A stretch of 64,000 nucleotides of DNA, taken from Eledone cirrhosa. Its lineage: Eukaryota. The position numbers and the translations under genes are program-made. Location of the stretch: NCBI GenBank assembly GCA_964016885.1, contig OZ024747.1, positions 83,948,001 to 84,012,000 of the forward strand. Reading direction: 5' to 3'. Positions within the stretch are counted from its first letter, which is position 1. Every line of letters begins with the position of its first letter. Shown here one piece after another: positions 58,897 to 63,384 of this stretch. The notes below the pieces were generated by a model, which worked only from the letters and a program-made list of their open reading frames with translations, had not been told where the DNA came from and did not search any database.

Positions 58897-58899
<3 letters not shown>

Positions 58900-59055
58900 A
58901 ACGAGTAGGACCCCGACGGCTGAGAATTAGCCGTCGAAACGGCTTGTGCTCAGCCGTTGGGGTCCTACTCGTTCCTATTACCCACTCTACTACCCTAAGT
59001 ATTGAGTACTTTGGTGCGTTATGGTCCACCTGGTTACTTACCACATTTCCTTCGT

Positions 59056-59209: not shown

Positions 59210-59505
59210 AAATTGCGTAATATATGTAAACCAACGGAATGATGGTAAACCTTAAGGAAGCAGGCAAAGAAAAAAAGATGAAAAAGTATGTGCTTATGTT
59301 TTTGACCCAGAGACGAACGAAGCAGCATGCTGTTATAATGCCTCGCCGTCTCTGTATATATATATATATATATATATATTAGGGTAAACATTGATGCAAT
59401 TCAATTCAAGCACTCAACGTACTTTTTCCACATAGGAGTGACGGAGTAAATATCGAATAAGTAAAAGCGAAGTAGTTTCAGATGTTCAAGTCCTTTAATA
59501 ATAAT

Positions 59506-59579
59506 GCTGTGATATATATTTCAATGACGACACTGGCCACACTGTTCTGTGTGCGAGTGTCGTGACATCATCAGACAGC
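59506..59579 (-). ncRNA. Type I hammerhead ribozyme (inverted copy)
   Basis: Reverse complement of 60828-60901. Confidence 0.75.
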
Positions 59580-60827
59580 TTGTTACATAATAAGGTTGTT
59601 TCCGAGGCAATCCAAATTGAATCGACATGGGAACGGATGAAGTTCGTGCTTTTGGGTTTTTCATCCATTCCCTTCGCTTTTACTTATTCGATATTTACTC
59701 CGTCACTCCTATGTGGAAAAAGTACGTTGAGTGCTTGAATTGAATTGCATCAATGTTTACCCTAATAATTAAGCTCCGATTAGTTGAGCGCTCTATGATG
59801 TAACCGATATGGTGGAGAAGAGAGGAACCAACCAAGAGCTACCCCGGAAATCCCCTCTACCATGGGGATGAAAAACCCCTGACACTGGACGGGCGTAATA
59901 GTATCTTTCGGCAGGATAAATACGCGGAAACAAATAATAAGATAAACCCCTATTTTCCTGCACCAAATCGCTTCTGAACAGAGGCCCCCTCAATTCAATC
60001 TATACATGGACAGATGGACAATCATATGGATCATTTTACATATATGTACTCTGTGTTTTTGCATTTATTCACTATTGTTTCTTTTCTTTTGTGTACTTTT
60101 TGTCTGTTTTTCTTTGACTCTGTTCCATGTGATGGAAAGTATGACCGTGTAGCGGATTGACTAATGCCTTGAACCATGTGGTTTGCCCTCCGTTATAAGG
60201 TCCGGCACTGCCGTTCAATATCTGTAACACTAGAATCCCTCCCAGAACATATTACTTAAACATCTCTCTCCATATTATTTACTCACTTCAATGTATATCT
60301 TTACTTAATCCGAATTATCACTTGAAAAATTTTTTGAATTTAGAATTTTTGAATTCTTTATTGTTTAATTTATAATCTCTGATATTTGATTTAGGATTTT
60401 AATCTTTAATTTTAATTTTTATTCCCAACTCTCACTCTTAACTTACTATGTAAAACCATAGTACCTAGAATTAAGTTTATTTTACCTTATGAGGTGATGG
60501 TCAGTCTTACTGTCAACGCTTAGTGAAAGGTAGTATTATGACCTATAAAAACTAACACCCTCCCATCCCCTCTGGCTTTCGGCTGACTGCCACAGTAGCG
60601 ATGGTAGCAGTAAGCTTTGGCAAGGCATAGGTGGGCCACTGACAGCGAATTTCGTTGAAATCTGCGGTGCTAATGGTCAACTTCCTTCGGACATGCGCTT
60701 GCGCAGACCGGTGGGGGTGAATTGGTACTCACAAGGGAACGGATGAAAAACCCAAAAGCACGAACTTCATCCGTTCCCATGTCGATTCAATTTGGATTGC
60801 CTCGGAAACAACCTTATTATGTAACAA

Positions 60828-60900
60828 GCTGTCTGATGATGTCACGACACTCGCACACAGAACAGTGTGGCCAGTGTCGTCATTGAAATATATATCACAG

Positions 60901-60901
<1 letters not shown>
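60828..60901 (+). ncRNA. Type I hammerhead ribozyme
   Basis: gctgt-CTGATGA-tgtcacgacact...agtgtcgtcatt-GAAA-TATATA-TC-acagc; perfect 5-bp stem I, palindromic stem III, ATC cleavage after 60896. Confidence 0.78.
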
Positions 60902-60934
<33 letters not shown>

Positions 60935-60962
60935 GTAAAAGTATGTATATATATATACATAA

Positions 60963-61006
<44 letters not shown>

Positions 61007-61112
61007 GTAAAAGTATGTATATATATACATAAATATATATATATATATATATATGTGTGTAAAAGTATGTATATATATATACATAAATATATATGTATAT
61101 ATATATACATAA

Positions 61113-61222
<110 letters not shown>

Positions 61223-61224
61223 TT

Positions 61225-62002
61225 TTCAATACCCGAATTACTTGATCGTTTTTTGGGGCTCTGCGAATGATTGTTTAACCATCGTCTCAGTGTGTTTGGC
61301 CTTTAACGTTTGTTATAGCTCTGGTTCATCTGAATCATTGAGCACTTGCCACACATCTCGGAGGTTGTTTTTCGTTATTTCGTGGGCCGAAATGCGAATC
61401 TCGATAATTTATGTTTGTATTTATCTCCAGACTCTAGCTATTGACCAGTTAATTTTCTTGATTTTTTTAGTTGATTCTATTGACTGATGACTAGCTTATG
61501 TTAATTTTAACCCTTCTGTTGAGAACTCTATTCGATTTGTGATGTTTTTGCATTCTTGCAAAAATATACACAACTGAATTTATTCGCCTGATATAGGGGC
61601 TGCCTCCCTTACCGATCCCCACGTGGAGTCAGCAATAGTCAGTCCTTGTATTAACATTGAACTAAAACCTGTTGAGAAAGTAGCTTCCTTGTTCAATCAT
61701 CTTACCAGAAGCCTGACATTATTTATGTAAGCGGACAGTACTTGATTTAGGAGCCGCAGAAACCCAAATACTGGATTTTACCAACCTTCCAGGGGTCCGG
61801 GTAAATTTTCAATACCCGAATTACTTGATCGTTTTTTTTCTGGCTATGCGAATGATTGTTTAACCATCGTCTCAGTGTGTTTGGCCTTTAACGTTTGTTA
61901 TAGCTCTGGTTCATCTGAATCATTGAGCACTTGCCACACATCTCGGAGGTTGTTTTTCGTTATTTCGTGGGCCGAAATGCGAATCTCGATTATTTATGTT
62001 TG
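61225..62002 (-). mobile_element. Penelope-like 3' fragment with ~195-bp direct repeats
   Basis: 61225-61420 is repeated at 61807-62002; between and into the repeat, remnants STGFSS, SPYIR, VLNRR, KYKHKLSRF resemble the GIY-YIG C-terminus. Confidence 0.55.
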
Positions 62003-62109
62003 TTTATAATATATATATATTATATATACGTATATATATATATATGATATATACGTATATATATATATATATTATATATACGTATATACATATATATATT
62101 ATTTATATG

Positions 62110-62882: not shown

Positions 62883-63384
62883 TATTTATTTTTTTTTTTT
62901 TTTTTTTTCTCGTGCAATGGCCATACTCGATAACGAGGGGGAAGCCATCATGTATGTATGAACCTATAACTCCTGATGAAATCGTAGGGGCACCGTATTG
63001 ACATACAGCATTTCTTGGGCTTTTTTTAACTCTGGAGAAGCCCAGCTCCTCCTCAGGTCTGAACACAGCTGATTTCTTCCAGAGAAAGAAAGAGAATGAT
63101 AGCGAGAAAGTTAGAATGAGGTATAGAAGAGGATCGACCCAGTACTAGACTGGTACATTTTTTTTTTCGACCTCGAAAAGGTGAAAAGCAAAATTGACCT
63201 CGGCAGGATTTGAAGTCAGCTCGCAGAGAGCCGGAACGAATATTCAAAAGCATTCTATCCGACGTTCTAACGACTCCGGCAGTTCACCGCCCATTACATA
63301 TACTTATACATGCATACATATACAGGTGCGCGTGCATGTACACATACGTAGATAGATATATTTCTTTATTTACCATAAAGGCAT

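What the first reader, a model, noticed from the sequence alone, without database searches (positions are those of the whole stretch)
59378..60902. ~1.26 kb ORF-less, circularly permuted multi-hammerhead retroelement
Seen: the + strand reads block A (from 59671), a body with no ORF over ~70 aa, hairpin B (60735-60778), then a hammerhead (60828-60901). The inverted copy (59378-59671) reads B, hammerhead, ~32-nt spacer, A. So in the source RNA the hammerhead is followed by A again, giving a unit of about 1.26 kb. The body holds two more hammerhead-shaped folds: tttta-cCTTATGA...GAAA-GGT..ACC-TA-taaaa (60480-60550) and ggcca-CTGACA-gcgaatttcgtt-GAAA...tggtc (60633-60678). Known: Penelope-like elements carry type I hammerheads with palindromic stem III, and animal retrozymes are short non-coding hammerhead units that form circular RNAs. 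Inference: this may be a large retrozyme-like circRNA replicon mobilised by Penelope RT. The duplicated blocks are nearly identical, so the insertion is young.
Basis: partly seen in the sequence, partly recalled or inferred. Interest (0 to 1): 0.72.

Follow-up and report, generated by a model that had tools for sequence, protein, structure and literature searches.

The report
Large non-coding Penelope-type hammerhead repeat
A 1.3-kb protein-free repeat carrying one intact hammerhead-ribozyme motif (not three) occurs about 1,200 times in this animal genome, mostly next to TA repeats where checked, and its ends indicate it was likely pasted in by a borrowed Penelope-type reverse transcriptase, possibly from an RNA circle that has not been observed.

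Summary
The anatomy is real; "multi-hammerhead" is not. The window holds a two-armed, head-to-head insertion of a non-coding repeat with a 1.24-1.32 kb unit, and 1,197 hammerhead copies match genome-wide. Only the hammerhead at 60828-60901 is intact. The other two folds lack core bases, score at chance level and look less hammerhead-like in older subfamilies. In 98 hand-chosen loci, 160 of 167 arms end downstream of the predicted cut site, mostly at +56 or +133 nt; 56 of 64 two-armed insertions use one end of each kind. That is the Penelope footprint of internal priming on both target strands. None of the 98 has reverse-transcriptase sequence as its own body; no helper sharing its ends was found. 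Arms run through the cut site (24 of 25), and tandem passes are as alike as opposite arms (2.55% vs 2.49%). This fits a circle but equally an uncut multimer or template jumps. The scan noted the same footprint earlier in smaller families on other DNA.

The parts
59355..59377 (.). (TA)n target microsatellite, left side
59378..59674 (-). Short arm (297 nt): hairpin B, hammerhead, spacer, block A; ends at the 'long' start site, 133-134 nt past the predicted cut
   Evidence: L001, offset 134
59506..59579 (-). Inverted copy of the type I hammerhead; predicted cut 59511/59510
   Evidence: CTGANGA at 59574, minus strand
59473..59504 (-). 32-nt spacer after the hammerhead; in other copies a tRNA-derived SINE inserts here
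59672..59674 (.). Head-to-head junction of the two arms, 3-nt microhomology, at the foot of hairpin B
   Evidence: junction survey
59672..60902 (+). Long arm (1,231 nt, 0.98 unit): A, body, B, hammerhead; ends only 6 nt past the predicted cut, earlier than the usual +56
59672..59766 (+). Block A: holds both inferred RT start sites of the family; conserved between subfamilies
59767..60732 (+). Non-coding body, no conserved ORF, no detectable PLE coding remnant
60480..60550 (+). HH1 look-alike: not an intact hammerhead (G5>U; GAAA absent in the old subfamily)
60633..60678 (+). HH2 look-alike: not an intact hammerhead (G8, A9, U16.1 missing; stem I made by a recent deletion)
60733..60780 (+). Hairpin B (13-bp stem); 5' ends of arms are enriched here
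60828..60901 (+). Intact type I hammerhead, palindromic stem III, predicted cut 60896/60897
60904..61222 (.). (TA)n-rich microsatellite, right side

Best explanation
This is a non-coding repeat family with a ~1.27-kb unit and one intact hammerhead motif, whose copies sit at TA microsatellites as single or head-to-head arms ending at two fixed points, and which was likely inserted by a borrowed Penelope-type RT/GIY-YIG protein priming inside an RNA that is continuous across the predicted cut site. Shown: unit, copy number, ends, arm pairing, target, absence of coding, conservation of the hammerhead-to-A module. Inferred: the helper nicks both strands of (TA)n; two cDNAs start at about +56 and +133 nt on RNA from one source; they run different distances, often stalling at hairpin B, and are joined head to head through short homology. 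Untested: transcription, self-cleavage, and whether the continuous template is a ligated monomer circle, an uncut read-through multimer, or a linear monomer re-read by template jumps. I put about 0.85 on the non-autonomous PLE reading, and within it about 0.4 on a circle as the main template.
For: Ends: 80 of 167 arms end 0-80 nt past the cut (71 at the +54 to +64 call, true end +56) and 80 at +128 to +139; 56 of 64 two-armed insertions pair one of each, 1 pairs two short ends and 7 have one end unscored (p = 8e-16 on the 57 scored). Junction overlaps of 1-11 nt are common (40 of 64). 5' ends are enriched at hairpin B, 3.6 per kb against 0.7-1.6 elsewhere and 2.8 in the 60 nt just upstream. 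150 of 167 arms span the cut site (loci were chosen for carrying it), and 24 of 25 arms that copied a whole unit ran past the next cut site. Tandem passes differ by 2.55% and opposite arms by 2.49% in 18 loci; excess -0.7 to +0.8 points. Young vs old subfamily majorities differ at 1 of 251 sites in the hammerhead-to-A module and 68 of 876 in the body. RT + GIY-YIG PLEs with open frames up to 938 aa are present. Two internal RT start sites downstream of the hammerhead and extension of both strands were shown in vitro for an anole PLE (PMC11167929). A tail on one inverted pLTR and mobilisation in trans are described (PMC3846280).
Against: No autonomous element sharing the terminal module was found in 50 PLE loci, 19 PLE 3' UTRs or 55 loci of sister hammerhead families, so the helper is unnamed. 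In the anole PLE, hammerhead mutants inserted normally and uncleaved RNA was the dominant template, which argues against needing a circle. Eight of nine Xenopus retrozyme dimers did not cleave in vitro. The stem II closing pair here is U-U, not G-C. In only 2 of 12 long tandem overlaps was the partner the closest sequence of all, against 10 of 20 for opposite arms, a hint that tandem passes are slightly less alike. The longest array (L166, 5 units) grew by local duplication of a two-unit block, so long arrays are no proof of rolling-circle copying. The 98 loci were not a random sample.
Confidence: 0.85

Rival explanations
1. One reading: a multi-hammerhead circular RNA replicon, in which three ribozymes process a viroid-like RNA.
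For: HH1 has 11 of 12 core bases and two helices in the young subfamily. In old copies HH2 reads CUGACUA, a short stem, then GAAA, and its 50 sites show no majority substitution between subfamilies.
Against: HH1: G at core position 5 in 0 of 93 aligned copies and no canonical core in 0 of 131 genome matches; its GAAA reads GAG(A/G) in 37 of 38 old-subfamily copies; 23 of 150 shuffles match its score. HH2: not found at 11 of 12 core bases in the window; the old form is matched by 76 of 150 shuffles. No hammerhead core on the antisense strand. Circular MFE z = -1.4, 57% paired.
Confidence: 0.04
2. The unit is the UTR or an internal deletion of an autonomous RT-encoding PLE, and copies are by-products of that element.
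For: Li et al. found 24 of 57 Xenopus retrozyme families homologous to known TEs, nearly all PLEs, at their termini. A weak tblastn match (32% over 53 aa, E 0.2-0.5) joined four related GIY-YIG ends to one copy.
Against: That match depends on a private 1-nt deletion in L007, is absent from three other copies and scores like antisense chance hits (46 vs 47); an EN profile found nothing. In 98 family loci arms run into more of the same unit, never into RT or EN; the one arm with an ORF (L168) holds a nested, different PLE with its own hammerhead. A remote origin of this kind stays possible.
Confidence: 0.08
3. Satellite-like or DNA-level spread (unequal crossover, segmental duplication, DNA transposon with terminal inverted repeats).
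For: L166 shows local duplication (b=d 0.15%, c=e 1.15%, others 5.3-7.1%). The window copy looks as if it had inverted termini.
Against: Copies are dispersed over many contigs with unrelated flanks, fixed 3' ends, variable 5' ends and arms of variable length; the inverted part differs from copy to copy.
Confidence: 0.03

Closest known systems
Animal non-LTR retrozymes (Cervera and de la Pena 2020, PMC7229834; Li, Clavereau and Pollet 2026, 10.64898/2026.07.22.740005)
   Same: Non-coding, GC below 50% (39%), one type I hammerhead per unit, head-to-tail units, co-occurring with PLEs.
   Different: Mostly partial and two-armed rather than long arrays. Circular RNA shown there, untested here. Circular fold is not strongly self-paired.
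EN+ Penelope-like elements, Neptune-type and Poseidon (PMC8557442; PMC3846280; PMC11167929)
   Same: 5' truncation, partial tandems, head-to-head inverted copy, optional tail on one end, (TA)n targets, minimal hammerhead with long stem II and palindromic stem III, ends downstream of the hammerhead.
   Different: No RT or EN. The tail between the two ends is about 77 nt, not 30-40. No ORF starts in or after the hammerhead.
Non-autonomous Chlamys PLEs such as MRC1 (PMC8557442, PMC9940879)
   Same: Non-coding PLE passengers with pLTRs and multicopy head-to-tail insertions.
   Different: Algal; Chlamys elements mostly lack canonical hammerheads; they generally resemble an autonomous family at the 3' end, which was not found here.
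Plant LTR retrozymes (PMC4918200, PMC5680766; search listing and start of abstract only)
   Same: Non-coding hammerhead retroelements; circles of 600-1000 nt are the nearest in size.
   Different: Type III hammerheads in LTRs with PBS, PPT and 4-bp TSD; none of that arrangement here.

Membership tests
Animal non-LTR retrozyme | Type I hammerhead in each repeat unit | tested here: met
   12 of 12 core bases; 1,197 pattern matches, control 0; core intact in 165 of 173 sampled copies, a sample biased to intact ones
Animal non-LTR retrozyme | Head-to-tail units, at least two consecutive hammerheads | tested here: met
   27 cut-to-cut monomers in 98 loci; not in the window copy itself
Animal non-LTR retrozyme | No protein coding, no LTR/PBS/PPT | tested here: met
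   Longest ATG frame 46-90 aa in 26 monomers and 133 aa in one, none conserved in length; arrangement
Animal non-LTR retrozyme | Small unit (150-450 bp; up to 972 bp in the capped survey) | tested here: not met
Animal non-LTR retrozyme | Self-cleavage and circular RNA in vivo | not testable with these tools
   No RNA run was available; needs northern, RNase R and in vitro assays
Non-autonomous Penelope-like element | 5'-truncated partial tandems plus head-to-head inverted copy | tested here: met
   64 two-armed insertions and 32 of 167 arms longer than one unit
Non-autonomous Penelope-like element | Optional tail at one end; two internal RT start sites downstream of the hammerhead | tested here: met
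   56 of 57 fully scored two-armed insertions pair a short and a long end
Non-autonomous Penelope-like element | Microsatellite or AT-rich targets | tested here: met
   146 of 167 arm ends are followed by (TA)n or (TC)n
Non-autonomous Penelope-like element | Terminal similarity to an autonomous helper family | tested here: inconclusive
   None in 50 PLE loci, 19 3' UTRs, 55 sister-family loci; 10,596 first-look GIY-YIG candidates exist, 150 scored
Autonomous PLE | RT + GIY-YIG ORF between pLTRs | tested here: not met
Viroid-like / multi-ribozyme circRNA replicon | Ribozymes in both polarities or several intact ribozymes; rod-like fold | tested here: not met
   One CTGANGA per unit, sense strand only; HH1 and HH2 at chance level; z = -1.4

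The most novel reading that the evidence does not exclude
A ~1.27-kb ribozyme-closed RNA circle, larger than any animal retrozyme I found in print, is copied by a dimeric Penelope-type RT from two fixed points into both strands of a nicked (TA)n at once, rolling through its own ligation junction, with telomerase-like reiteration of a dinucleotide at the short start site.
Probability: 0.3. Interest if true: 0.65.

Novelty: new member of a known kind. Interest (0 to 1): 0.38.

Why it matters
It also gives a protein-free substrate with two mapped start sites and a conserved ~250-nt module for testing two open questions: whether Penelope enzymes make head-to-head insertions by priming both target strands on one RNA source, and whether the hammerhead serves to make the template. 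The class and the two-start mechanism are in print, and this scan has noted the same footprint in smaller families, so the surprise is moderate.

Tried and rejected
Rfam at E<=5 gave only microsatellite noise and missed the hammerhead. GIY-YIG remnant in the body: weak tblastn hit, rejected by profile and frameshift-aware tests. Extra hammerheads, canonical or scrambled: rejected, no second CTGANGA. L168 as the autonomous parent: rejected, a nested different PLE (no Pfam hit at 0.001). L085 is a family arm ending in (TC)n next to an EN fragment, not its 3' end. L166 as rolling-circle proof: rejected. Helper search by shared hammerhead: 290 related motifs found, 20 plus 20 loci fetched, none linked to an RT-EN frame of its own. 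Sequencing runs: no RNA holder listed; four runs of unrecorded kind were laid as contigs and say nothing on expression. One search had a one-base register error in block A (the rows with about 60% difference); it was redone, and only those are quoted. Dropped before counts: 7 loci fetched twice; L166 (local duplication) and L189 (two adjacent insertions of different subfamilies) in the tandem-versus-inverted test; the separate older arm in L065. Pol III box and TATA scans gave nothing convincing. Look-up of earlier findings by this sequence found none. Not-in-print claims rest on six searches; Repbase, Dfam and the supplements of the bioRxiv preprint were not seen and may already list this family.

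Full report
1. What is in the window. Between two TA microsatellites lie two arms joined head to head at 59672-59674 through a 3-nt overlap. The minus arm (59378-59674) reads hairpin B, hammerhead, 32-nt spacer, block A. The plus arm (59672-60902) reads A, body, B, hammerhead and stops 6 nt after the predicted cut. The shared parts match at 169/170 and 95/95. The hammerhead at 60828-60901 is type I with all 12 core bases, a 5-bp stem I, a long stem II closed by U-U and a palindromic stem III; none of 150 shuffles of the body reached its score. Cervera and de la Pena describe this long-stem-II, dimer-type form in PLEs (PMC4209133, part 1 of 4 read). No frame inside the element exceeds 77 aa. 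The genome is 3.0 Gb; it resembles an octopod genome by my recall only, which I did not test.

2. It is a family. The body gave 1,686 first-look candidates, of which 40 were scored. An exact hammerhead pattern matches 1,197 times with 0 in the reversed control; insertions are fewer, since many have two arms. I examined 98 loci: 23 top body hits, 30 exact hammerhead hits, 5 larger refetches and 40 picked from the first 100 pattern matches (15 of an older variant, 5 multi-unit, 20 others). They are not a random sample. Subfamilies differ by up to 16% in the body. Opposite arms of one insertion differ by a median 1.63% (53 loci), the window by 0.74%, so this copy is young within a long-active family.

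3. One hammerhead, not three. HH1 has U in place of G5: no G in 93 aligned copies, and none of 131 exact genome matches to its hairpin has a canonical core. Its GAAA reads GAG(A/G) in 37 of 38 old-subfamily copies, so the likeness arose late. 23 of 150 shuffles score as well. HH2 lacks G8, A9 and U16.1, and its stem-I arm abuts the core only after a 21-22 nt deletion. The old form is one base from a core but is matched by 76 of 150 shuffles. Against my reading, those 50 sites show no majority substitution between subfamilies, so some function there is possible. No second CTGANGA exists on either strand, which also excludes an intact scrambled hammerhead.

4. The insertion footprint. Of 167 arms, 80 end within 80 nt after the predicted cut (71 at the main site, +56) and 80 end at +128 to +139; 146 are followed by (TA)n or (TC)n. 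Of 64 two-armed insertions, 56 pair a short with a long end, 1 pairs two short ends and 7 have one end unscored. The 5' ends vary, overlap by 1-11 nt in 40 of 64 junctions and are enriched at hairpin B. This matches published PLE behaviour: an inverted 5'-truncated copy and a tail at one end (PMC8557442, passages; PMC3846280, passages), and in vitro nicking and extension of both strands from two internal start sites downstream of the hammerhead (PMC11167929, parts 1-2 of 4). The hammerhead-to-A module differs at 1 of 251 majority sites between subfamilies against 68 of 876 in the body (p = 6e-7). Indels were not counted and 31 of those sites were fixed by my pattern, but the contrast remains. 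I infer that this module is what the helper recognises.

5. The helper. RT + GIY-YIG elements are abundant: 10,596 first-look candidates, 150 scored, open frames up to 938 aa with both domains. Most carry the CxxC linker I recall as Neptune-type. None of 50 such loci, 19 3' UTRs or 55 loci of sister hammerhead families shares this element's ends in an RT-coding context. A faint endonuclease match in the body failed two controls. PLE mobilisation is thus inferred from the footprint; the helper is unnamed.

6. Circle or not. Because arms start downstream of the cut, the template must be continuous across it. 24 of 25 arms that copied a whole unit ran past the next cut site, so a cleaved linear monomer without efficient jumps is unlikely. 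Tandem passes differ by 2.55% and opposite arms by 2.49% in 18 loci, excess -0.7 to +0.8 points; read-through of a typically aged genomic tandem would be expected to add more. That fits a circle, but also very young sources or template jumps. Against a circle: uncleaved RNA was the dominant template for the anole PLE; 8 of 9 Xenopus dimers did not cleave; tandem partners were the closest sequence in only 2 of 12 long overlaps against 10 of 20 for opposite arms; the circular fold is unremarkable (z = -1.4); and the one long array grew by local duplication. I leave the circle at about 0.4.

7. Comparison and novelty. It works like a Penelope passenger and meets the sequence-level definition of an animal non-LTR retrozyme (PMC7229834, part 2 of 6 and passages; Li et al. 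2026 preprint, parts 1-3 of 5). Its unit exceeds their 972-bp maximum, but that survey capped the period at 1000. Non-autonomous PLEs with head-to-tail insertions are known (MRC1), as is carriage of unrelated sequence between pLTRs. Six searches found no description of this family; repeat databases and preprint supplements were not seen. Earlier notes of this scan describe the same two-armed footprint in 310-495 nt families, none with this sequence. I had seen the two ends before that look-up; the pairing count followed it.

8. Verdict. Observation largely right, multi-hammerhead wrong, circle open. New member of a known kind, notable for size. Interest 0.38.

Noticed in passing
Spacer just after the cut site in L004, L008, L010, L024, L029, L044, L054, L061, L155, L161, L164, L165, L167, L182-L187: A tRNA-derived SINE has inserted again and again at one AT-rich site 3-20 nt after the predicted cut (19 of 171 spacers scored; varied 5' truncation and target duplication; twice doubled), never seen in two passes of one insertion, so these copies do not seem to propagate. 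L155 also has a 2-kb insert at that site, unidentified.
   Followed up: partly
Short ends of L003, L014, L028, L036, L042, L061, L062, L151, L164, L174, L176, L181, L189: (TC)n lies between the +56 end and (TA)n in 13 arms (3-27 repeats in the 12 counted) and at no long end; 23 of 75 long ends read carry extra AAT. Possibly reiterative copying at initiation; empty sites needed.
   Followed up: partly
L097:7510-8425 and L136-L150: A 459-bp tandem hammerhead family (1,908 first-look candidates) shares stem I, the 5' flank motif and an end motif with this element, though the overall alignment is not significant.
   Followed up: partly
L116-L135, L191-L210: At least 290 related hammerheads with the same stem I in sister families; L201, L208 and L207 are older relatives (68-84% over the terminal module), several two-armed with similar end offsets.
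   Followed up: partly
L168:3240-5500 minus strand: A divergent RT-EN Penelope-like element (529-aa frame, about 24% identity to the other PLEs, own hammerhead) nested in the AT-rich part of an arm; no Pfam hit.
   Followed up: partly
L166:650-7396: Five-unit array built by recent duplication of a two-unit block.
   Followed up: yes
window 61223-62003: Another non-coding partial tandem between TA repeats (198-nt direct repeat, 583-nt period, CTGATGA at 61484), with relatives in 10 fetched loci; a candidate for the scrambled hammerhead noted elsewhere in the scan.
   Followed up: no
window 58897-59055: Short element with a long hairpin between TA repeats, matched in 48 fetched loci.
   Followed up: no
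window 62900-63060: CTGANGA motifs on both strands (62973 plus, 63056 minus) in a short repeat-like stretch; not examined.
   Followed up: no
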